NCBI GenBank assembly: GCA_031459875.1 | Contig: JAVKHQ010000027.1 | Span: 1-34,301, forward strand | DNA from: Candidatus Fervidifonticultor sextus | GTDB lineage: Bacteria > Sysuimicrobiota > Sysuimicrobiia > Sysuimicrobiales > Humicultoraceae | Length of the DNA: 34,301 nt | Direction of reading: 5' to 3' | Shown: positions 7,037 to 15,498 of the stretch, in pieces | Numbering within the stretch: position 1 is the stretch's first letter | How the letters are laid out: each line of letters opens with the position of its first letter | Notes under the pieces: model-generated | What the model was told of the DNA's origin: nothing | The model's database searches: none | The model's input: only the letters and a program-made list of their open reading frames with translations | Position numbers and translations under genes: made by a program

Positions 7037-10000
7037 GTGCAGCTTCGCCGGCTTGAGCTCGCAGGCTTCAAGACTTTTGTGGACCGCACCGAACTGGAAT
7101 TCCATCCCGGCATCACGGCCATCGTCGGGCCCAACGGCAGCGGCAAGAGCAACATCTTCGACGGGATCCGGTGGGCGCTCGGGGAGACCAACGCGCGCCT
7201 GCTGCGCGGCCTGCGCATGGAGGATGTGATCTTCTCCGGCTCCGCCCACCGCAGGCCGTTGGGGATGGCCACGGTCGCCCTGACGCTGGACAACAGCGCC
7301 GGGGGACTGCCGGTGGAGTTTGCCGAGGTCACCGTGTCGCGCACCGTCACGCGCGGCGGCGAAGGCGCCTACGCCATCAACGGGGTGGACTGCCGGCTGC
7401 GCGACGTGCAGATGCTGTTCCTGGGGACCGGGCTGGGCGGTCGCTCCTATGCGCTGATCGGTCAGGGCGAAGTGGACGCGGTGCTGCGCGCCACGCCCGT
7501 CGAGCGCCGCCACTGGCTGGAGGAGGCGGCGGGACTGGCCCGCCACAAACGCCAGCGGATCGAGGCCGAGCGCCGGCTGGATCATGCCCAGGCCTACCTG
7601 GACCGCCTCGGCGACCTGCTCGACGAACTCGGGCGCCAGCAGCAGGCGCTGGCGGTGCAGGCCGAAGCGGCCGCCAGGCACCGGGCGTACACCACCGAAC
7701 TCCGTGACCTGGAGGTGGCCTTGTTCGCCGACGAGGCCCGCCGGCTACTGGGTGCCACCCGGCGCCTGGCGGCGCAACTGGCCGTCGAGCGCGAGCAGGC
7801 CGCCGCATCCGAGCGGCGCGCGGCCGAGGCTGCCGCCGATGTGGCCCTGGTGGAGGCGCACTTGGCGAACGCGACGGCGGCGTGGGAGCAGGGCCAGCAG
7901 GCCCTGCTGGATGGCGCAGAGGCACTGCGCGCCCGGGCCGCCGAGGTCCAGGCCCTGGATGCCCAGGCTGAGGGCCTGCGCGGACAACTCACCCACGTGG
8001 AGGCGGAACTGGCGCGGCTCGATGAGGAGCGGGCGGCACTGGCCGGCGACGCCAACGCGCTGACGGCGCACTTGGCCGACGCGGTGCGCAGGCACCAGGC
8101 CGCCGCTGACGGCCTGGCGGTCGCCGAGGCGGACCTGGAGCAGGCCGCTGCCGTGGCGCGGGAGGCGGAAGCCCATCTGGGTCGCCAGCGGGACGAGGCG
8201 ATGGAGGTGGTGCGGACGCTGGCCCAGACGCGCAGCGACCTGGCCGCACTCCGCGGCCGGGCCGAGGTGGTGGCCCAGAGCGTCGAGGCAGCCGCGCAGC
8301 GGGTCGGCGCGCTGGGTCAGGCCGCCGCGCGCCTGGCGTCGGAGCGCGAGGCCGCCGCGCGCGCCGCCGAGGCGGCCCGGGCGGTGCTGCGGGCCGCAGA
8401 GGACGCCCTGGTCGCCGCCACCTCGCAGGTGGAGGCGCGGCGGGCTGACCTGACCTCGGCCCGGGAGCGCGTCCACACCGTGGAACTCGAGGTCCACCGC
8501 CTGCGCAGCCGGCTTGTTGCCCTCGAGGAGGCCGCAGCCCAGTTCGTCGGTTTCGAGGACGGCGCACGGGAAGTGCTGCGCGCGGCGCGCACCCATCCTG
8601 AGCGCTTCCCCGGGCTGCGCGGCGCCCTGGCCGACCTGATCGTCGTGCCCCAGGAGTTCCAAGGCGCGGTCGCCGCCGCCCTCGACCGCCGGCTCCACTG
8701 CCTGGTCGTCGAGCGCGCCGCCCAGCTGGAGCACGTCGTGCGCTTCCTCACGGAGGAGGCGCGGGCCGGAGGCATGCTGGTGGCGATGGACGCCCTCCCC
8801 CGCGGCGATCCAGCGGCGAGGACCTCTGCCCCCGCCGTCGTCGCTCGGGCCGCCGAGGTCGTGGGGACCGATCCCGACCTGCGCCCCGTCGTTGACGCCC
8901 TGATCGGCGATGCGGTGATCGTGGACGACCTCCCCACGGCCTGGGAGCTCGCCGCGGCGGGCCATCCGGGCAGGATCGTGACGCGGGGTGGGATCGTGCT
9001 CGCCCCCGACGGTGTGGTCTCCGTGGCCGGGCCCACCAACGGGGAGGCAGCGCCGCTGGGCCGGGGCCAGGCGATCGCCGGGTTGCAGCGTGCCCTGGCC
9101 GACGCCGAAGCGCGTCACCTGGAGGCCGAGTCCGCGCAGGCGGATGCCGCCCGGGCGCTGGCGGCCGCCGAGGCGGCCCTGCGCGCGGCCCGGGCCGATC
9201 GGGAGGCCGCCGCCTCGGCTTGCGGTGAGCACGAGCAGCACGTGGGACGCCTGGCCGCCGAGGCCGCGCGACTGGCCGACGAAGAAGCTGCGGCCTCGCA
9301 AGACGCGCAGGCCGCCACAGACTCCCTGCGGCGTCTGGAGGCCGAGATCGCGCAGTCCCAGGCCGACCTGGAGTACCTCGAGGGCGCCCTGCGCGACCTC
9401 GAGGCCCAGGTCGCAACCGCCGAGGACGAGGTCCGCCGGACGGCTGGGGCGCGCGACGACATGGCCGAGGCCGTGGCCGCCCGCCGCCTGGCCCTGGTCC
9501 AGGCCGAGGGGGTGGTGGCATCGCTGCGGGAACGGCTGTCCGACCGGACCGCGGCGCTGTCCGACCTGGAAGCGCGCCGCGCCGAGGTGGCCGCCACCGC
9601 GCACCGCCTGGAGGCCGACCTGGCTGCGATCAGGGCGCGGCGTGACGAAGCCGCCTCCGCGTGCGACCGGGACGCCGCCGCACACACGGCCACCAGGGAC
9701 GAGGTCGAACGCCTGGCCGCCGAGCGGGTGCGCCTGCGCGAGGCGATGGCCGGCCGGCAGGCCGAGCACGCCGCCGCCGTGGAGGCGGCGCGCTCGGCCC
9801 AGGCGGCGGTACACAAGACCGAACTGCGCGCGGCCCAGGCTGAGGCCGAACTCCACGCGGCGGCGGCGCGCCTGCAGGAGGAGTGTGGCATCGGGCTGGA
9901 GGACGCCGCCGCGCGACGGCTGGAGGGCTCGCGGGAAGACGCCCGCCGCCGCGTGGAGGAACTGCGGGGCGCCCTGCGCGACCTGGGGGCTGTGAACCTG

Positions 10001-10669
10001 CGGGCGATTGAGGAACACGCGGCGCTGACCGAGCGGCTGGAGGCCCTGCGGGCCCACGTGGACGATCTCCAGAGAGCCCAGGCGGCGCTGCGGGCAGCGA
10101 TCAAGCACATCAATGCGGCCCTGCGCGTGCGGTTCCGCCAGACGTTCGACCAGGTGAACCAGGAGTTCGGCCGCCTCTTCGTGGAGTTGTTCGAGGGCGG
10201 AGAAGGATCCCTGGAACTGGTGGAGGACGAGGCGGGCGGCGAGCCCGGGCTGGAGGTCATCGCCCAGTTGCCCGGCAAGAAGCGCCGGCCGCTGGTGGCG
10301 CTGTCCGGCGGCGAACGGGTGCTGGTGGCCCTCGCGCTCATCTTTGCCATGTTGCGGGTGCACCCCAGCCCGTTCTGCATCTTTGACGAGGTCGAAGCCG
10401 CCCTCGACGACGTCAACACGAAGCGGTTCACGACGCTGCTGCGCGAGCTGGCCCGGCAGACGCAGGTGATCATCATCACGCACAACAAGGGCACGATGGC
10501 CGCTGCCGACGTCCTCTATGGGGTCACGATGCAGGAGCCCGGCCTCTCGTCCATCGTGTCCGTCCGCCTGGTGCCGCCGTCCCCCAACGGCGAGCAGCCG
10601 CCGGATGACGGATCGCGGGCGCGGGCGGGCGCCCCGGCGGCTCAGACGGCGGCGCTGCCGGCCGAGTAG
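7037..10669 (+). CDS. smc: Chromosome segregation protein SMC
   Basis: Walker A GPNGSGKSN, long coiled coils with central hinge, LGAVNLRA, signature LSGGE, Walker B/D-loop DEVEAALD, ITH. GGAGGAG RBS. Adjacent to ftsY. Confidence 0.97.
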   Translation: MQLRRLELAGFKTFVDRTELEFHPGITAIVGPNGSGKSNIFDGIRWALGETNARLLRGLRMEDVIFSGSAHRRPLGMATVALTLDNSAGGLPVEFAEVTVSRTVTRGGEGAYAINGVDCRLRDVQMLFLGTGLGGRSYALIGQGEVDAVLRATPVERRHWLEEAAGLARHKRQRIEAERRLDHAQAYLDRLGDLLDELGRQQQALAVQAEAAARHRAYTTELRDLEVALFADEARRLLGATRRLAAQLAVEREQAAASERRAAEAAADVALVEAHLANATAAWEQGQQALLDGAEALRARAAEVQALDAQAEGLRGQLTHVEAELARLDEERAALAGDANALTAHLADAVRRHQAAADGLAVAEADLEQAAAVAREAEAHLGRQRDEAMEVVRTLAQTRSDLAALRGRAEVVAQSVEAAAQRVGALGQAAARLASEREAAARAAEAARAVLRAAEDALVAATSQVEARRADLTSARERVHTVELEVHRLRSRLVALEEAAAQFVGFEDGAREVLRAARTHPERFPGLRGALADLIVVPQEFQGAVAAALDRRLHCLVVERAAQLEHVVRFLTEEARAGGMLVAMDALPRGDPAARTSAPAVVARAAEVVGTDPDLRPVVDALIGDAVIVDDLPTAWELAAAGHPGRIVTRGGIVLAPDGVVSVAGPTNGEAAPLGRGQAIAGLQRALADAEARHLEAESAQADAARALAAAEAALRAARADREAAASACGEHEQHVGRLAAEAARLADEEAAASQDAQAATDSLRRLEAEIAQSQADLEYLEGALRDLEAQVATAEDEVRRTAGARDDMAEAVAARRLALVQAEGVVASLRERLSDRTAALSDLEARRAEVAATAHRLEADLAAIRARRDEAASACDRDAAAHTATRDEVERLAAERVRLREAMAGRQAEHAAAVEAARSAQAAVHKTELRAAQAEAELHAAAARLQEECGIGLEDAAARRLEGSREDARRRVEELRGALRDLGAVNLRAIEEHAALTERLEALRAHVDDLQRAQAALRAAIKHINAALRVRFRQTFDQVNQEFGRLFVELFEGGEGSLELVEDEAGGEPGLEVIAQLPGKKRRPLVALSGGERVLVALALIFAMLRVHPSPFCIFDEVEAALDDVNTKRFTTLLRELARQTQVIIITHNKGTMAAADVLYGVTMQEPGLSSIVSVRLVPPSPNGEQPPDDGSRARAGAPAAQTAALPAE

Positions 10670-10701: not shown

Positions 10702-11610
10702 GTGACCCCTGAACCGTCGGGCTGGCTGGCCCGGCTGCGTACATCGCTGGCGCGCACCCGCGAGGCGTTCGCCGGGCGTCTCGACGGGTGGCTGGCCGCC
10801 CTGCCCGATGAGGCGTCCTTCGAGGCGCTGGAGGAGGCGCTCATCCGGGCGGATGTTGGCGCCGCGCTGGCCGCCGAGATCGTCGACCGCCTGCGCGGGG
10901 AGCCGTCGGCGCGCACGCCGGAGGACATCCGCGCCGCGCTGGCGCGCATCCTCCAGCAGATCCTAGGCCCTCCCCGCACCCTGCAGCTGGCCCCGCCGCC
11001 GGCAGTGGTCCTCATGCTGGGTGTCAACGGCTCTGGCAAAACCACCACGATCGGCAAACTCGCCCACCGCCTGCAGGCCGAGGGCCGGCGCGTCCTGCTG
11101 GCCGCGGCCGACACCTTCCGGGCCGCGGCCATCGAGCAGCTCGTCCTGTGGGGCGAGCGGGTCGGCGCGCCGGTGGTCCGCCACCAGGCCGGGGCCGATC
11201 CGGCGGCCGTGGTGTTCGACGCGGCGCAGGCCGCCGTCGCGCGGCGGGCCGACGTCCTGATCGTGGACACCGCCGGACGGCTCCACACGAAGGTCAACCT
11301 CATGGAGGAGCTCAAGAAGATCGACCGGGTCATCGCGCGGGCCCTGCCCGCCTCGCCTGTGGAGCGGCTGCTGGTGCTCGATGCCACCACCGGGCAGAAC
11401 GGTCTGGCGCAGGCCCGCCACTTCCACCGGGCCGTCGGCCTCACCGGTGCCGTGCTGGCCAAACTCGACGGCACGGCCAAGGGGGGCATCGTGGTGGCCG
11501 TGGCCCGCGAGTTGGCGATCCCGGTCGTCTTCGTGGGCACCGGGGAGGGCCCGGACGACTTGGTCCCCTTCGACCCCGCCGCGTTCACCGCCGCCCTCCT
11601 GGCCGCCTGA
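10702..11610 (+). CDS. ftsY: SRP receptor FtsY (NG domain only)
   Basis: GVNGSGKTT, DTFRAAA, DTAGR, KLDGTAKGG, GTGE. Confidence 0.97.
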   Translation: MTPEPSGWLARLRTSLARTREAFAGRLDGWLAALPDEASFEALEEALIRADVGAALAAEIVDRLRGEPSARTPEDIRAALARILQQILGPPRTLQLAPPPAVVLMLGVNGSGKTTTIGKLAHRLQAEGRRVLLAAADTFRAAAIEQLVLWGERVGAPVVRHQAGADPAAVVFDAAQAAVARRADVLIVDTAGRLHTKVNLMEELKKIDRVIARALPASPVERLLVLDATTGQNGLAQARHFHRAVGLTGAVLAKLDGTAKGGIVVAVARELAIPVVFVGTGEGPDDLVPFDPAAFTAALLAA

Positions 11611-11637
11611 CCGCCGCCCTCCGACGCTCCCCGGCCG

Positions 11638-11667
11638 TTGACGCCGCACCGCCTCCCCGTGTATGGT
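11638..11667 (+). promoter_or_regulatory. Probable sigma70-type promoter of the ylxM-ffh operon
   Basis: TTGACG-18 nt-TATGGT in an AT-richer intergenic patch. Confidence 0.55.
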
Positions 11668-11678
11668 AGAAAGAGTCT

Positions 11679-11698
11679 GTCAAGGATTATTCCTTGAC
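11679..11698. promoter_or_regulatory. Perfect inverted repeat GTCAAGGA-TTAT-TCCTTGAC, operator-like
   Basis: 8-bp arms with a 4-nt spacer, just downstream of the predicted -10 and upstream of the RBS. Confidence 0.6.
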
Positions 11699-11722
11699 GA
11701 TATGGTGATGACGGAGAGGCCG

Positions 11723-12637
11723 ATGGACCGCACGCTGGCCGACCGCGACCGCACCAACCGGCTGATGGACGCTTACGGGGCGCTGCTGACGGCCCGGCAG
11801 CAGCGGATGCTGCGGCAGTACTACCAGGACGACCTGTCCCTGGGCGAGATCGCCGGACAGATGCGGGTGTCGCGGCAGGCGGTCCACGACGGCCTGCGTC
11901 GGGCGCTCGCGGCCCTGGAGCGCTACGAGGCCGCCCTGCGCCTGGTGGATCGGCCCGATCGCCCCCCAAGGCCCGCCGCCCGGCCGCCCGGCGCCCGGGG
12001 CGGCGAGCACTACTTCGTCCCTGCACCCCGGTCGCGCCTGCGGTCCCGCGTGCTCCGGGTCACGCTGCGCGGCCGGCCCTGGACTTTCCAGACCGCCTCC
12101 GGCGTGTTCTCGCATCGTGCGCTGGATGCCGGTACGCGGCTTCTGGCCGAGAGGATGCGCGTCGGGCGCGCCGAGCGCGTCCTCGATATGGGCTGCGGCT
12201 ACGGGGTGATCGGACTGGTGGCGGCGGCGTTGGCCCCCCAGGCGGAGGTGTGGATGACCGACACCAACCAGCGCGCGGCGGCCCTGGCCCGGGCCAACGC
12301 CGCGCGGCACCACCTGGCCAACGTCCGCGTGGTGGTTGCCGATGCCGCCGGCCCGATCAGGGGTTGCTCCATGGATCTCGTGTTGACCAACCCGCCCATC
12401 CGGGCGGGCCGCCGCGTCGTGAGGACGTTCATCGAGGAGGCCTGGCGCGTGCTCCGCCCGGGAGGGCGATTCTACCTCGTGGCGCGCACCGCGCAGGGCG
12501 CCAGGACCCTGGCCCGGCTCATCGAGGAGCGGTTCGGCGGGATCCGACAGGTGGCGGTATCTGGCGGCTACCGTGTGTACGAGGCGACACGGAGCCAGCC
12601 AGCCGGCCGATCGTCCACGGAGGCGGCCGGTGTTTGA
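11723..12637 (+). CDS. Fusion: N-terminal YlxM-family HTH domain + C-terminal YbxB/RsmC-like class I SAM methyltransferase
   Basis: YlxM pattern LMDAYGALLT.RQ...YY.DDLSLGEIA...VSRQAV.D; Pro/Arg linker; then EHYF, SGVFS..LD.GTRLL, LDMGCGYG, TNPPIRAG. Single open frame. Start chosen after GGAGAGG. Confidence 0.88.
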   Translation: MDRTLADRDRTNRLMDAYGALLTARQQRMLRQYYQDDLSLGEIAGQMRVSRQAVHDGLRRALAALERYEAALRLVDRPDRPPRPAARPPGARGGEHYFVPAPRSRLRSRVLRVTLRGRPWTFQTASGVFSHRALDAGTRLLAERMRVGRAERVLDMGCGYGVIGLVAAALAPQAEVWMTDTNQRAAALARANAARHHLANVRVVVADAAGPIRGCSMDLVLTNPPIRAGRRVVRTFIEEAWRVLRPGGRFYLVARTAQGARTLARLIEERFGGIRQVAVSGGYRVYEATRSQPAGRSSTEAAGV

Positions 12638-13973
12638 AGGCCTGCAGGCGCGGCTGGGGGAGATCGTCCGGAAGCTCACTGGCCGGGGGACGCTGAGCGC
12701 CGAGGAGGTCGACGCCGCCCTCCGCGATGTGCGCCTGGCGCTCCTGGAGGCCGATGTCAACTTCAAGGTCGCCCGCGACCTCGTCGAGCGCATTCGCGCC
12801 GCGGCCGTCGGTCAGGAGGTCTGGAAGCACCTGAGCCCGGGCCAGCAGGTCGTCAAGATCGTCCACGAGGAGTTGACCCGGCTGCTCGGGGGCGCGGCGC
12901 GCGAGGTGCGCATGGCGAGCCGGCCTCCCACGGTGATCCTGCTGGTGGGCCTGCACGGCGTCGGCAAGACGACCACCGCGGGCAAACTCGCCGCGTGGTT
13001 CCGCCGGCGCGGCCGCCACCCGCTGCTCGTGGCTGCGGATCCCAAGCGGCCGGCGGCCGTCCGGCAACTCCAGGTGGTCGGCGGTCAGGTGGCTGTCCCG
13101 GTGTTCGCGCCCGGAGATAGGGTCCCGGGAGGACCGGAGGCGGCCGACCCGGTCGGGCTGGCTCAGGCCGCCCTGGGGTGGGCCGTCCGGGAGGGCTGCG
13201 ACGTGGTCGTCATCGACTCGGCCGGGCGATTGCACGTCGACGACGCCCTGATGGCGGAACTGGCGACGATGCATGGAGCGCTGCGCCCCCACGAGACGCT
13301 GCTGGTCCTGGATGCCATGGCCGGTCAGGACGCCGTGCGGTCTGCGGAGCAGTTCGCCGCGCGCCTGCCGCTGGACGGGTTCATCCTCACGAAAGTGGAC
13401 GGCGACGCGCGGGGCGGGGCGGCGCTCTCGGTGGTCGCGGTGACCGGCAAGCCCATCCTGTTCCTCGGGGTCGGCGAGCGGCCCGACGCGCTGGAGCCCT
13501 TTCACCCCGACCGGATGGCGTCCCGCATCCTGGGGATGGGCGATGTCCTCTCGCTCATCGAGCGGGCGGAAGCCGCCACCACCGCGGAGCGGGCCGCCGA
13601 ACTGGCGCGCAAACTCCGGCGGAACCAGTTCACGCTCGCCGATTTCCTGGAGCAGTTGCGCCAGGTCCGGCAGATGGGGCCGCTGGACCAGCTCCTGGAC
13701 ATGCTCCCGGGGTTCTCGCGCGCGAGGCTGTCGGGGATCACCGTGGACGAGGGCCAGCTCAAGCGGATCGAGGCGATGATTCAATCCATGACGCCGCAGG
13801 AGCGCGCGCACCCGGCCATCATTGACGGCAGCCGGCGGCGCCGGATCGCGCGCGGCAGCGGCACTGCGGTCCAGGACGTGAACCGGCTGTTGAAGCAGTT
13901 CGAGCAGGTCCGCCGCCTCATGCGTCAGGCCGAGGAGCACGGGCGCGGGGGACCATTTCGACTGGGGAGGTAG
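12630..13973 (+). CDS. ffh: Signal recognition particle protein Ffh
   Basis: ALLEADVNFKV, GxxGxGKTT, TKVDGDARGGAALS, FHPDRMASRILGMGD, M-domain SMTPQER...SRRRRIARGSG. GTG start after GGAGG. Confidence 0.97.
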   Translation: MFEGLQARLGEIVRKLTGRGTLSAEEVDAALRDVRLALLEADVNFKVARDLVERIRAAAVGQEVWKHLSPGQQVVKIVHEELTRLLGGAAREVRMASRPPTVILLVGLHGVGKTTTAGKLAAWFRRRGRHPLLVAADPKRPAAVRQLQVVGGQVAVPVFAPGDRVPGGPEAADPVGLAQAALGWAVREGCDVVVIDSAGRLHVDDALMAELATMHGALRPHETLLVLDAMAGQDAVRSAEQFAARLPLDGFILTKVDGDARGGAALSVVAVTGKPILFLGVGERPDALEPFHPDRMASRILGMGDVLSLIERAEAATTAERAAELARKLRRNQFTLADFLEQLRQVRQMGPLDQLLDMLPGFSRARLSGITVDEGQLKRIEAMIQSMTPQERAHPAIIDGSRRRRIARGSGTAVQDVNRLLKQFEQVRRLMRQAEEHGRGGPFRLGR

Positions 13974-14262: not shown

Positions 14263-14508
14263 ATGCCGCCGGCCGACCTGCGGGCGCTGGTGGAGTTCGT
14301 GACCCGGGGGCTGGTGGACCACCCGGAGGCGGTCAGCGTGCGTACCGTCGACCACGACCGGATGACCGTGATCGAGATCCGGGTGGCGCCCGAGGAGGTC
14401 GGCAAGGTCATCGGCCGGCGGGGCCGGATCATCGGCGCCATCCGCACGCTGGTCAAGGCCGCCGTCGTGCGCAGCGGCCGGCGCGTGGTGGTGGAGATCG
14501 TCGGTTAG
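14263..14508 (+). CDS. khpA: KH-domain RNA-binding protein KhpA (YlqC)
   Basis: LVDHPEAV, GKVIGRRGR (GxxG), AIRTLV; position after rpsP. Confidence 0.93.
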   Translation: MPPADLRALVEFVTRGLVDHPEAVSVRTVDHDRMTVIEIRVAPEEVGKVIGRRGRIIGAIRTLVKAAVVRSGRRVVVEIVG

Positions 14509-14510
14509 TC

Positions 14511-14939
14511 ATGTCGAACATGCTGGAGGCCCAGATGGGGATCACAGTCGTTCGGCCGGTGGTGGTGAAGGCCATCGTGACCGAGACTTTCAAGAAGCAG
14601 TACCTGGCCGAACTGGAGGACACGGTGAAGCGGCTGGACGCGGTCATCGCACAGATCGACGTCCAGATCCGCCGCGCCGAACTGGAACGACAGGTCAGCC
14701 CGCAGGTGCGCGCCTTCCGCCAGCAACTGGAGGTGGAGCGGTCGCGGCAGGAGGCGGCGCGCATGGAACTGCAGGCGCGGATCAAGGAAGCCGAAGCCCT
14801 GGAACTCAACTCCGAGTTCTCCCAGGGGACCATCGAGGGCCTAGTCGACCTCAGCGTCGGCGACAACTTCTTCGTGCGGCTGGCGCGGACCGAGGTGGTC
14901 ATCAAGGATGGCATCGTCATCGAGATCCGCGAGGGCTAG
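14511..14939 (+). CDS. ylqD: YlqD family protein
   Basis: RPVVVKAIVTE start, coiled coil, VGDN...EVVIKDGIVIEIR end; position between khpA and rimM. Confidence 0.88.
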   Translation: MSNMLEAQMGITVVRPVVVKAIVTETFKKQYLAELEDTVKRLDAVIAQIDVQIRRAELERQVSPQVRAFRQQLEVERSRQEAARMELQARIKEAEALELNSEFSQGTIEGLVDLSVGDNFFVRLARTEVVIKDGIVIEIREG

Positions 14940-15498
14940 GGCCCCGCGCGCCTCGGCCGGCCGGGCCGCAGGGTGCCCGGCAGATCTGGTCACGGTCGGG
15001 CGCGTGGCCGCCCCCCACGGGTTGCGGGGCGAGGTGCGGGTGGCCCTGGAGACCGACTTCCCGCAGCGGTTCGCGGGGTTGCGCGCGGCCTACCTGGTAC
15101 AGGGCGGCCGCGCAGAGCCCGTGGAGATCACGGGGTCGCGTCCCCACCGGGGCGGGGTCCTGCTGCGCATCCGCGGAATCGACGACCCGGAGGCGGCGGG
15201 CCGCCTGCGGGGAGCCGCGATCGCGGTGCCGCGCAAGGCCCTGGTGCCCCTCGGCCCCGACGAGTTCTACGTGTTCGAGGTGGTGGGCCTGCGGGCGGTG
15301 GCCGAGGACGGCCGGCCGCTGGGCACCGTGGACGCCGTGATGCGGGGGCCGGCCCACGACGTCTACGTGATCCGGGGCGACGCCAACGAGGTGCTGGTGC
15401 CGGCCGTGCGCCAGGTCGTGCGCCGGATCGACCTGGAGCGGCGTGAGATGGTGGTGGCGCTGCCGCACGGGCTCGGAGATGCGCGCCATGCGCATTGA
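14908..15498 (+). CDS. rimM: Ribosome maturation factor RimM
   Basis: VGRVAAPHGLRGEV, DEFY..EVVG, AHDVYV, VLVPAV. Start uncertain; the only in-frame ATG overlaps the end of ylqD. Confidence 0.93.
   Translation: MASSSRSARARAPRASAGRAAGCPADLVTVGRVAAPHGLRGEVRVALETDFPQRFAGLRAAYLVQGGRAEPVEITGSRPHRGGVLLRIRGIDDPEAAGRLRGAAIAVPRKALVPLGPDEFYVFEVVGLRAVAEDGRPLGTVDAVMRGPAHDVYVIRGDANEVLVPAVRQVVRRIDLERREMVVALPHGLGDARHAH

What the first reader, a model, noticed from the sequence alone, without database searches (positions are those of the whole stretch)
11723..12637. YlxM fused in-frame to a YbxB/RsmC-like RNA methyltransferase inside the SRP operon
Seen: one ORF with a YlxM domain (~11723-11947), a Pro/Arg linker (DRPDRPPRPAARPPGARGG) and a complete class I MTase starting at EHYF (12005), with no ATG/GTG in the linker for a separate start. 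Its stop overlaps the ffh GTG. Established: YlxM is normally a ~110-aa stand-alone protein upstream of ffh; YbxB-like MTases begin M.EHY, usually lie between rplL and rpoB, and NPP in motif IV marks amino-group methyltransferases. The usual YlxM C-terminal helix appears to be replaced by the linker. Inference: a Rosetta-stone link suggesting that the MTase is tethered to SRP or the ribosome and might methylate SRP RNA, rRNA or Ffh, or that SAM status feeds into regulation of the operon. I do not know of a description of this architecture.
Basis: partly seen in the sequence, partly recalled or inferred. Interest (0 to 1): 0.75.

Follow-up and report, generated by a model that had tools for sequence, protein, structure and literature searches.

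The report
YlxM fused to rRNA methyltransferase
In one branch of an uncultivated bacterial phylum, a small DNA- and SRP-binding protein (YlxM) has been permanently joined to the ribosomal-RNA methyltransferase that is its next-door gene in all related bacteria, which hints that the two work together.

Summary
Window 11723-12637 (+) is one 304-aa ORF holding a complete YlxM helix-turn-helix core, a disordered Pro/Arg linker and a complete YbxB/MJ0882-type class I methyltransferase. Its stop overlaps the ffh GTG.

It is not an artefact or a singleton. 87 of the 120 listed protein clusters share the architecture, and 23 of 94 species genomes of the phylum carry it. On an Ffh+FtsY+RpsP tree the fused genomes form one fully supported clade, so one fusion event suffices.

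In every other lineage of the phylum, ylxM and the methyltransferase are separate neighbours between ftsY and ffh. In 28 of 31 such loci their stop and start lie within 14 nt or overlap. The fusion removed YlxM's C-terminal helix. The methyltransferase is the genome's only YbxB-type enzyme, and rplL-rpoB holds none.

A 22-bp palindrome (TGTMAAGG-N6-CCTTKACA) sits between a promoter and ylxM in all 53 loci examined, and before hsp20. It also precedes ylxM in Bacillota and Dormibacterota. It is probably the YlxM operator.

Both modules most likely keep their ancestral jobs. Retargeting to SRP RNA or SAM-dependent regulation is untested.

The scan had already noted this fusion in another genome (e1-7782023).

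The parts
10702..11610 (+). ftsY (SRP receptor), the gene upstream
   Evidence: Pfam SRP54 E 4.3e-75 and SRP54_N. It lies in the same position in the related loci whose contig reaches that far.
11638..11667 (+). Promoter-like site TTGACG-18 nt-TATGGT
   Evidence: It is the only promoter-like hit in 11500-11800; shuffles gave a mean of 0.0. A comparable TTGAC...TAnnnT pair stands in the same place in most aligned upstream regions.
11678..11699 (.). 22-bp palindrome TGTCAAGGATTATTCCTTGACG; candidate operator, probably bound by the YlxM domain
   Evidence: It is the only match in the window with up to 2 mismatches; 0 of 100 shuffles reached it. It is present in 53 of 53 loci before ylxM. 73 of 94 genomes have a site, against 1 of 94 for the reversed control. 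The same motif precedes ylxM in 24 of 80 loci of an all-bacteria scan and in 17 of 28 Bacilli loci.
11713..11719 (+). Shine-Dalgarno-like GGAGAGG
   Evidence: Read from the sequence.
11723..12637 (+). Fusion gene ylxM::ybxB-like methyltransferase (304 aa plus stop)
11741..11953 (+). YlxM / sigma-70 region-4-like HTH core (residues 7-77); recognition helix VSRQAVHD at 11867-11890
   Evidence: PF04297 E 4.4e-21, Sigma70_r4 E 4.1e-07, NF045758 at 85.8 bits. PDB 1S7O and 1XSV match. R51, Q52, A53, V54, H55 and D56 are invariant in 79 fused proteins.
11951..12004 (+). Disordered Pro/Arg/Gly linker (residues 77-94), which replaces YlxM's C-terminal helix
   Evidence: pLDDT below 50. Among the 22 fused loci the stretch between the shared LGL(V/A) and the (E/D)HY motif runs from 4 to 28 residues with no conserved sequence.
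12005..12634 (+). YbxB/MJ0882-type class I SAM methyltransferase (residues 95-304); motif I VLDMGCGYG at 12179-12205, motif IV TNPPIRAG at 12386-12409
   Evidence: PF05175 covers 2-170 of 170. 1DUS MJ0882 matches at E 1.4e-38. D155, G157, C158, G159, Y160, G161, N223, P224, P225, R227 and G229 are invariant in 79 fused proteins.
12630..13973 (+). ffh (SRP54 homologue); its GTG start overlaps the stop of the fusion gene by 8 nt
   Evidence: Pfam SRP54_N, SRP54 and SRP_SPB; sequence.

Best explanation
A single in-frame gene fusion arose in the ancestor of eight genera of one family of a small uncultivated phylum. It joined two genes that are translationally coupled neighbours everywhere else in that phylum. 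One is ylxM, a sigma-4/KorA-like helix-turn-helix protein reported elsewhere as an SRP accessory factor and a transcriptional repressor. The other is a YbxB-type SAM-dependent methyltransferase, whose B. subtilis counterpart puts one m2G on 16S rRNA helix 34. The fusion deleted YlxM's C-terminal helix and the stop/start junction and left a flexible linker of variable length. Both halves remain under purifying selection and most likely keep their ancestral activities. The N-terminal HTH probably binds the conserved palindrome TGTMAAGG-N6-CCTTKACA, which lies just after the -10 box, over the expected transcription start of its own operon (ylxM-MTase-ffh-rpsP-khpA-rimM-trmD). A second copy of the palindrome lies before hsp20. 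The HTH may also contact Ffh and SRP RNA. The C-terminal domain methylates 16S rRNA. The fusion fixes 1:1 stoichiometry and co-localisation of two proteins that already acted in one expression unit. Shown here: the gene is real, conserved and of single origin; the ancestral state was a coupled pair; both domains are constrained; the methyltransferase is YbxB-type; the palindrome is conserved. Inferred: DNA binding by the YlxM domain, the 16S target, and whether the two halves cooperate.
For: The architecture is confirmed and the junction is intact in independent contigs.

The fusion recurs. 87 of 120 listed clusters carry PF04297 and PF05175 at 58-94% identity. 82 of 83 YlxM-domain proteins of 167-532 aa are this fusion.

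It is fused in 23 of the 90 genomes with a match, out of 94 searched, all within 8 genera of family f1 (the count includes unpublished G022).

The order ftsY-ylxM-MTase-ffh-rpsP is kept in the 53 loci as far as each contig reaches. Of 31 split loci, 17 have a 4-nt stop/start overlap, 2 a 1-nt overlap, 1 abuts and 8 have gaps of 2-14 nt.

On the Ffh+FtsY+RpsP tree the 21 fused rows form one clade (SH-aLRT 100), and one change of state suffices.

The YlxM-to-Ffh distance ratio is 1.06-1.15 in fused pairs and 1.15-1.37 in split pairs. The catalytic motifs and the recognition helix are invariant in 79 fused proteins.

The fusion holds the only full-length MTS domain and the only YlxM domain in the 96% complete genome. 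The rplL-rpoB gap is 312 nt with no methyltransferase. The homologues in two Bacillales genomes lie between rplL and rpoB.

For YbxB, passages of bioRxiv 10.64898/2026.05.25.727669 assign it one m2G on 16S rRNA.

For YlxM, it binds Ffh and scRNA and modulates GTP hydrolysis (passages of PMC8546722 citing Williams 2014). It represses the rpsP operon in M. pneumoniae (passages and supplements of PMC6721554). Its fold resembles the DNA-binding domain of KorA (PMC2665229).

For the palindrome.
Against: No experiment exists on any protein of this phylum. The 16S target is extrapolated from a homologue of 35-36% identity. YlxM binding to the palindrome is inferred from co-occurrence alone, and another regulator could bind it. 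Loss of the C-terminal helix may have removed the dimerisation element, going by the KorA analogy used in PMC6721554's supplement. It is then unclear how a fused monomer would read a palindrome. That all 22 fused genomes analysed kept the fusion could also mean it gives a new, coupled function rather than mere co-expression.
Confidence: 0.6

Rival explanations
1. Trigger-enzyme reading. The fusion is a regulator whose DNA binding is controlled by its enzyme half. When the methyltransferase domain is occupied by SAM/SAH or by unmethylated, immature 30S subunits, the HTH leaves or binds the operator. Expression of the SRP and 30S-biogenesis operon and of hsp20 would then follow ribosome-assembly or methyl-donor status.
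For: An HTH joined to a ligand- or substrate-binding domain is the usual build of one-component regulators (established knowledge). The operator is kept in the fused clade: 21 of the 22 loci have at most 1 mismatch. Five fused-clade genomes keep the hsp20 site. The fused protein is the only YlxM in the genome. The operon holds the 30S factors rpsP, rimM and trmD. All fused genomes analysed kept the fusion.
Against: Most of the phylum manages with two separate proteins. The linker varies in length and is predicted disordered, so no fixed inter-domain contact is evident. There is no evidence of allostery.
Confidence: 0.17
2. Retargeted methyltransferase. The YlxM domain docks the enzyme on Ffh or SRP RNA, so that it methylates SRP RNA, Ffh or ribosomes engaged with SRP.
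For: S. mutans YlxM binds Ffh and the SRP RNA directly. The gene lies between ftsY and ffh and overlaps ffh.
Against: The methyltransferase is the genome's only YbxB-type enzyme and shows ordinary conservation of the family motifs. So it presumably still has to do the housekeeping 16S modification. Its divergence rate relative to Ffh is similar in fused and split genomes, 1.35-1.89 against 1.19-1.62. No methylated SRP RNA or Ffh appears in the passages I read, and I ran no search aimed at it.
Confidence: 0.08
3. The YlxM domain has been recruited as an RNA-binding or substrate-recognition module of the methyltransferase. It would be the functional analogue of the extra N-terminal domain of two-domain RsmC, and it would no longer act on DNA or SRP.
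For: E. coli RsmC and RlmG carry an extra N-terminal domain that the YbxB/MJ0882 type lacks. YlxM binds RNA in S. mutans.
Against: The genome would then have no free YlxM, yet the palindromes before ylxM and hsp20 are kept in the fused clade. The recognition helix is invariant. The YlxM core evolves no faster after fusion.
Confidence: 0.1
4. Assembly or frameshift artefact, or a recently decayed gene pair.
For: None found. High-GC metagenome assemblies can carry indel errors (general knowledge).
Against: The same in-frame fusion occurs in 22 species genomes analysed here and in 87 protein clusters from several sources. Contigs from three DNA runs show 0 gaps. Both domains are conserved.
Confidence: 0.01

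Closest known systems
YlxM / UPF0122 (PF04297, NCBIfam NF045758; B. subtilis and S. mutans YlxM, M. pneumoniae MPN424; PDB 1S7O, 1XSV)
   Same: It has the same four-helix sigma-4-like HTH core, over the curated cut-offs. It occupies the same place after ftsY at the head of the ffh operon. The same 22-bp palindrome precedes the gene.
   Different: The C-terminal helix is missing (profile positions 74-101 of PF04297). The protein continues into a methyltransferase. ffh does not follow directly.
YbxB of B. subtilis / MJ0882 of M. jannaschii (PDB 1DUS): single-domain MTS methyltransferases
   Same: The MTS domain is full length, with an N-terminal (E/x)HY(F/Y) and motif IV TNPPIRAG; 1DUS matches at E 1.4e-38. 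The best and only homologues in Shimazuella and Alicyclobacillus lie between rplL and rpoB, the ybxB position. YbxB installs m2G on 16S rRNA (passages).
   Different: Here the gene lies between ylxM and ffh and is fused to YlxM. Identity to the Bacillales proteins is only 35-36%. The target is not tested.
RsmC (E. coli 16S m2G1207 methyltransferase, PDB 2PJD) and RlmG (4DCM)
   Same: Its C-terminal catalytic domain is homologous, E 2.3e-15 to 2PJD. It has the NPP motif of amino-group methyltransferases. If the protein acts like YbxB, its target would be a helix-34 m2G; that YbxB's m2G is the RsmC G1207 site is my recollection, not a call.
   Different: NCBIfam RsmC equivalog NF007023 scores 77 bits against a cut-off of 295. 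There is no MTS_N or second methyltransferase-fold domain.
KorA/TrfB of plasmid RP4 (PDB 2W7N)
   Different: There is no detectable sequence family membership. KorA dimerises through a C-terminal domain, and the fusion has lost the corresponding region.
Trigger enzymes with a DNA-binding domain (BirA, PutA, NadR; recalled from my own knowledge)
   Same: One polypeptide carries an HTH and an enzyme.
   Different: No evidence here that enzyme state controls DNA binding, and the enzyme acts on rRNA rather than a metabolite.

Membership tests
YlxM / UPF0122 | Match to the family profile over the curated cut-off | tested here: met
   PF04297 scores 75.5 bits against a cut-off of 22.7. NF045758 (equivalog) scores 85.8 bits against a cut-off of 80 and covers 4-71 of 72.
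YlxM / UPF0122 | Stand-alone protein of about 110 aa with a C-terminal helix after the HTH core | tested here: not met
   The Pfam match stops at profile position 73 of 101. Split relatives have 119-156 aa with a helical tail, whereas fused proteins have a linker instead.
YlxM / UPF0122 | Gene at the head of the ffh operon, after ftsY | tested here: met
   The order is ftsY, fusion, ffh, rpsP, although a methyltransferase module intervenes before ffh.
YlxM / UPF0122 | Binds Ffh and SRP RNA and modulates GTPase; represses the rpsP operon | not testable with these tools
   Known only from S. mutans and M. pneumoniae.
YbxB/MJ0882-type MTS methyltransferase | Complete PF05175 domain with SAM motif I and motif IV NPP | tested here: met
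   PF05175 covers 2-170 of 170 at E 9.3e-43. Motifs VLDMGCGYG and TNPPIRAG are invariant in 79 fused proteins. 1DUS matches at E 1.4e-38.
YbxB/MJ0882-type MTS methyltransferase | Orthology to the gene between rplL and rpoB of Bacillales | tested here: met
   It is the only hit at E <= 1e-8 in G094 and G095, full length, flanked by rplJ-rplL and rpoB (gene names read by eye from the translations). The own genome has no other full-length MTS domain and an empty rplL-rpoB gap.
YbxB/MJ0882-type MTS methyltransferase | m2G formation on 16S rRNA helix 34 | not testable with these tools
   Shown only for B. subtilis YbxB (passages of a preprint).
RsmC (NF007023 equivalog) | Score over the equivalog cut-off and a two-domain build (MTS_N plus MTS) | tested here: not met
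   77 bits against a cut-off of 295; only profile positions 169-338 of 342 match. No MTS_N.

The most novel reading that the evidence does not exclude
YlxM, in this phylum and in Bacillota and Dormibacterota, is a sigma-4-like autorepressor. It reads an inverted pair of -35-like hexamers (TGTMAAGG-N6-CCTTKACA) placed just after the -10 box of the SRP/30S-biogenesis operon, and here also before hsp20. In the fused clade this repressor has become a trigger enzyme: the rRNA methyltransferase half reports SAM or unmethylated 30S subunits to the operator, coupling protein targeting, ribosome assembly and a small heat-shock protein.
Probability: 0.17. Interest if true: 0.8.

Novelty: new variant of a known kind. 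Interest (0 to 1): 0.5.

Why it matters
YlxM is essential in a minimal cell (PMC9483919) and conserved in several phyla, yet its job is disputed. It has been called an SRP accessory protein in S. mutans and a transcriptional repressor in M. pneumoniae.

A phylum-wide, translationally coupled pairing with a 16S rRNA methyltransferase, made covalent in one clade, is a natural Rosetta-stone link between YlxM and small-subunit maturation.

The deeply conserved palindrome before ylxM gives a concrete DNA site on which the repressor hypothesis can be tested in B. subtilis or any other model organism.

The case also documents step by step how a fusion arises. The ancestral state was a coupled pair, often with a 4-nt overlap. 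Part of the sister clade also shortened YlxM but stayed split. In the fused clade the tail is gone and the frames are joined.

Tried and rejected
Complex prediction. I submitted full-length split YlxM and its neighbouring methyltransferase from G028, each with a 28-row alignment. The result was no verdict, score 0.01 against a mark of 0.32. This counts neither for nor against binding.

Independent fusions elsewhere. Among the best 150 of 13,581 hits in the 1.84-billion representative library, only P0048 aligns over both domains. Four N-terminally extended methyltransferases (P0155, P0189, P0261, P0249) and four others carry no YlxM domain. Weaker independent fusions below the top 150 cannot be excluded.

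RNA-element reading of the palindrome. There is no Rfam match at E <= 1. It can fold as a hairpin (-19.5 kcal/mol, z -2.44). However, the central variable position is non-complementary in 19 of 53 loci, which speaks against a strictly selected stem. The reading is not excluded.

Right half-site as a -35 box for ylxM. No -10-like hexamer follows at 16-18 nt (read), so I rejected this.

Literature. 'ylxM' occurs in 38 papers, of which 20 were listed. 'ylxM' with 'methyltransferase' and 'fusion' gives 5 papers, 'UPF0122' gives 2, and 'ylxM' with 'palindrom' gives 1, the KorA paper. No listed title or abstract concerns this fusion or the ylxM palindrome. One search was too loose to be useful. This covers the held library only. 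The supplements of PMC6721554 gave no YlxM binding motif as text; the motif may be in a figure.

Expression. Contigs from an RNA library (X4) cover 11897-11981 and 11952-12159 across the linker. DNA carry-over cannot be excluded, so this is only a weak hint of transcription.

Not done. I did not run a fold search of the model, because the sequence matches to solved structures were already clear.
Full report
**Observation.** The window holds one ORF at 11663..12637 (+). The start conserved among relatives is ATG 11723, behind GGAGAGG, and gives a 304-aa protein, P0001.

- Pfam finds UPF0122/YlxM at residues 7-77 (profile 3-73 of 101, E 4.4e-21) and the MTS methyltransferase domain at residues 120-287 (profile 2-170 of 170, E 9.3e-43).
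- NCBIfam's YlxM equivalog (72 positions) is matched at 4-71 and scores 85.8 bits against a cut-off of 80. The RsmC equivalog reaches only 77 of the 295 bits required.
- The 19-residue Pro/Arg linker has no in-frame start codon, and the stop overlaps the GTG of ffh.
- An AlphaFold2 model built on 79 fused relatives has mean pLDDT 85.3 and pTM 0.68. It shows a four-helix N-terminal domain (residues 2-72), a methyltransferase fold (108-289) and a linker (77-94) below pLDDT 50.
- Contigs of two DNA runs that may be the source are identical across the junction. A third run of the same study holds a relative with 40 substitutions and no gap over 11823-12508. Contigs from an RNA library cover 11897-11981 and 11952-12159; the RNA result is only a weak hint of expression.

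**Not a singleton.** In the 5.8-billion-cluster protein collection, 87 of the 120 best listed clusters (P0002-P0088, 58-94% identical) carry both PF04297 and PF05175. Their sources name them 'methyltransferase', '16S rRNA (guanine1207-N2)-methyltransferase' or 'YlxM family DNA-binding protein' of 'Armatimonadota bacterium'. After them come stand-alone methyltransferases of about 205 aa.

A search with the YlxM part alone among proteins of 167-532 aa gave 83 hits. 82 are this fusion and one, P0122, is a YlxM-Ffh fusion from a single 2.2-kb contig.

A full HMMER scan of 1.84 billion representatives (50% identity clusters) gave only one representative, P0048, aligned over both domains among the best 150. 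Eight other candidates checked had no YlxM domain. So the architecture is confined to one narrow clade.

**Distribution and ancestral state.** The genome's phylum, as grouped by the genome tool, holds 94 species genomes in one order and seven families. 90 of them have a match.

- A single uninterrupted match over both domains occurs in 23 genomes. All belong to eight genera (g1, g4, g5, g6, g7, g8, g10, g11) of family f1. This count includes G022, an unpublished genome used only for the count. G049 is cut by a contig end.
- In the other four genera of f1 and in all 19 genera of the other six families, YlxM and the methyltransferase match as separate neighbours.
- I fetched 52 loci and analysed them with the window. 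The order ftsY-ylxM-MTase-ffh-rpsP is kept wherever the contig reaches. 22 loci are fused and 31 are split.
- Of the 31 split loci, the ylxM stop and the methyltransferase start overlap by 4 nt (GTGA/ATGA) in 17 and by 1 nt in 2. They abut in 1, are 2-14 nt apart in 8 and 73-149 nt apart in 3. This is the signature of translational coupling.
- Outside family f1, YlxM has 119-149 aa with a C-terminal amphipathic helix of about 45 residues. In f1, genus g2 keeps a long tail (156 aa). Genera g3, g9 and g12 have a short YlxM of 83-92 aa. The fused proteins have a linker instead; between the shared LGL(V/A) and (E/D)HY motifs it is 4-28 residues long and unrelated in sequence from genus to genus.

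**One event, then retention.** I built a maximum-likelihood tree of concatenated Ffh, FtsY and RpsP (48 rows; 5 of 53 were left out for lack of enough Ffh). The 21 fused rows form one clade with SH-aLRT 100. It is sister (support 83) to the split f1 genera, and one change of state suffices.

Within the fused clade the YlxM core diverges about as slowly as Ffh, with a distance ratio of 1.06-1.15. The ratio is 1.15-1.37 among split genomes. The methyltransferase ratio is 1.35-1.89 in fused and 1.19-1.62 in split genomes (the pairs are not independent). The recognition helix (R51-D56) and the SAM and NPP motifs are invariant in 79 fused proteins. Neither half is decaying.

**What the methyltransferase is.** Its closest solved relative is the single-domain MJ0882 (1DUS, E 1.4e-38), which shares TNPPIRAG. 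The catalytic domains of RsmC and RlmG follow at E 1e-13 to 1e-15.

- The own genome is 96% complete and has only this one full-length MTS domain and only this one YlxM domain.
- Its rplL and rpoB are 312 nt apart with no gene between them.
- In Shimazuella alba and an Alicyclobacillus genome, the only homologue at E <= 1e-8 (35-36% identity, full length, same N-terminal xHYY) lies between rplL and rpoB. That is the ybxB position. I read these gene names from the translations by eye.
- A Dormibacterota genome has a 32% homologue elsewhere. Paraclostridium and Thermincola gave no match with this query.
- Passages of a 2026 preprint (10.64898/2026.05.25.727669) assign B. subtilis YbxB about one m2G per 16S rRNA. 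They place the modification on helix 34 and report cold sensitivity and streptomycin resistance of the deletion strain.

So this is a YbxB-type enzyme that has moved in this phylum from the rplL-rpoB gap into the SRP operon. None of 41 ylxM loci from other phyla (24, 17) has a methyltransferase between ylxM and ffh.

**What YlxM is said to do.** These points come from passages, not whole papers.

- S. mutans YlxM binds Ffh and the SRP RNA, does not bind FtsY, and modulates GTP hydrolysis (PMC8546722 citing Williams 2014).
- It is essential in JCVI-syn3A (PMC9483919).
- In M. pneumoniae it was retained on DNA columns and in a DNA pull-down. It is classed as a transcription factor that represses the single operon mpn656-660. 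MPN660 is rpsP, which rises by log2 1.26 in the dominant-negative/knock-out consensus (PMC6721554 text and supplements).
- The DNA-binding domain of the palindrome-reading repressor KorA is its closest structural relative (PMC2665229).

**A conserved palindrome.** Aligning the regions upstream of ylxM showed a 22-bp inverted repeat, TGT(C/A)AAGG-N6-CCTT(G/T)ACA. It lies a few bases after a TTGAC-17/18-TAnnnT promoter and mostly 7-15 nt before the start codon.

- In the window it is 11678-11699, behind TTGACG-18-TATGGT at 11638-11667.
- It is present, with at most 3 substitutions, in 53 of 53 loci.
- With at most 1 mismatch it occurs in 73 of 94 genomes of the phylum, usually once. The reversed control pattern occurs in 1 of 94.
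- The own genome has exactly two sites. The second is about 140 nt before an hsp20 gene.
- Of 14 second sites examined in other genomes of three families, 11 lie 80-150 nt before the hsp20 orthologue.
- The variable fourth position is complementary to its partner in 31 loci, G/T in 3 and non-complementary in 19. That fits two protein-binding half-sites better than a selected RNA stem. No Rfam family matches.
- Each half-site contains a -35-like hexamer (TTGACA or TTTACA), and YlxM matches sigma-70 region 4, the part of sigma that reads -35 boxes.

In 24 of the 80 the palindrome stands directly before ylxM. These come from Clostridia, Bacilli, Negativicutes, Dormibacterota and one 'Actinomycetes' MAG. 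In 5 more it lies downstream of ffh. In L182 it is 41 nt before an RpsP-like ORF, and in L131 and L153 it is 33 and 60 nt before RimM-like ORFs; I named those ORFs by eye.

In 61 genomes drawn evenly from the class of Shimazuella, 28 have a site with at most 1 mismatch, against 9 for the reversed control. In 17 of the 28 loci fetched, the site directly precedes ylxM.

My results agree and extend it. Because the element travels with ylxM across phyla, YlxM itself is the most economical candidate for the protein that binds it. This is an inference.

**How it most likely works.** The fusion is best read as two ancestral activities made covalent.

- The first is a sigma-4/KorA-like HTH that probably autoregulates the operon, and here hsp20, through the palindrome. 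It may also contact Ffh and SRP RNA.
- The second is a YbxB-type 16S rRNA m2G methyltransferase.
- The operon also carries rpsP, khpA, rimM and trmD, so a small-subunit methyltransferase fits its theme.
- That the coupled pair is universal in the phylum, and that the fusion is retained in every fused-clade genome seen, argues that equal dosage or proximity of the two matters.

Nothing here shows a new substrate, and nothing shows control of one half by the other. The trigger-enzyme reading, the SRP-RNA/Ffh-target reading and the substrate-recognition-module reading remain open at lower odds (see Rival explanations).

One open puzzle is dimerisation. A palindrome calls for a dimer, yet the fused proteins, and the short YlxM of three split genera, lack the C-terminal helix. 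By analogy with KorA, that helix might have made the dimer.

**Novelty.** Both families are known. Their fusion, and the phylum-wide ylxM-methyltransferase pairing, are not described in the papers I could search. Databases label the protein merely as a methyltransferase. The scan had already noted the same fusion in another genome (e1-7782023), with the same reading.

I rate it a new variant of a known kind. The palindrome before ylxM is the more general lead.

**Claims that rest on unpublished genomes.** The counts '23 fused', 'g11 2 of 2' and '73 of 94 with a palindrome' include G022. G013 is one of the four genomes without a match.

Noticed in passing
window 11678-11699; also L022-L073 upstream of ylxM, L105-L184, L241-L268: A 22-bp palindrome TGTMAAGG-N6-CCTTKACA lies between a promoter and ylxM. 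It is conserved across this phylum, Bacillota and Dormibacterota. Each half-site looks like a -35 box. It is a candidate YlxM operator and I found no description of it in the papers searched.
   Followed up: yes
G000:C63:4684-4705 (L074 1501-1522), about 140 nt before hsp20 at L074 1644-2078: A second, perfect copy of the palindrome precedes a small heat-shock protein gene. 11 of 14 such second sites in the phylum precede the hsp20 orthologue, which suggests a two-operon regulon of the SRP operon and hsp20.
   Followed up: partly
L182 (site 1501, RpsP-like ORF 41 nt after); L131 and L153 (RimM-like ORFs 33 and 60 nt after); L152, L171: In some other phyla the same palindrome lies downstream of ffh, before rpsP or rimM. 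This recalls the reported repression of the rpsP operon by M. pneumoniae YlxM. I named the ORFs by eye, not with a family scan.
   Followed up: partly
P0122 (497 aa, one 2.2-kb contig): A YlxM-Ffh fusion protein carries UPF0122, SRP54_N, SRP54 and the start of SRP_SPB. It is a single record and could be a real fusion or a frameshift.
   Followed up: partly
L052, L053, L056 (genomes G031, G037, G058, family f2): ylxM and the methyltransferase are in the same reading frame, separated only by one stop codon and 0-3 nt before the next start. A single base change would fuse them.
   Followed up: no
G030 (family f7): This genome has 6 palindrome sites with at most 1 mismatch, where other genomes have 1 or 2. 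Their neighbours were not examined.
   Followed up: no
L146, L142, L168 (Oscillospiraceae and Acutalibacteraceae): Among palindrome hits not next to ylxM, three lie beside or inside ORFs that look like the rRNA methyltransferases RsmG, RsmH and an RsmB/F-like enzyme. I named them by eye. This may be chance among about 50 unrelated hits.
   Followed up: no
window 14511-14939 (+): A 142-aa ORF lies between the KH-domain gene (14263-14508) and rimM (14908-15498). This is the position of ylqD in B. subtilis (recalled). It was not scanned.
   Followed up: no
window 7037-10669 (+): A 1210-aa Smc-like coiled-coil ATPase lies directly upstream of ftsY. It is named from its N-terminal Walker motif and length by eye, and was not scanned.
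   Followed up: no
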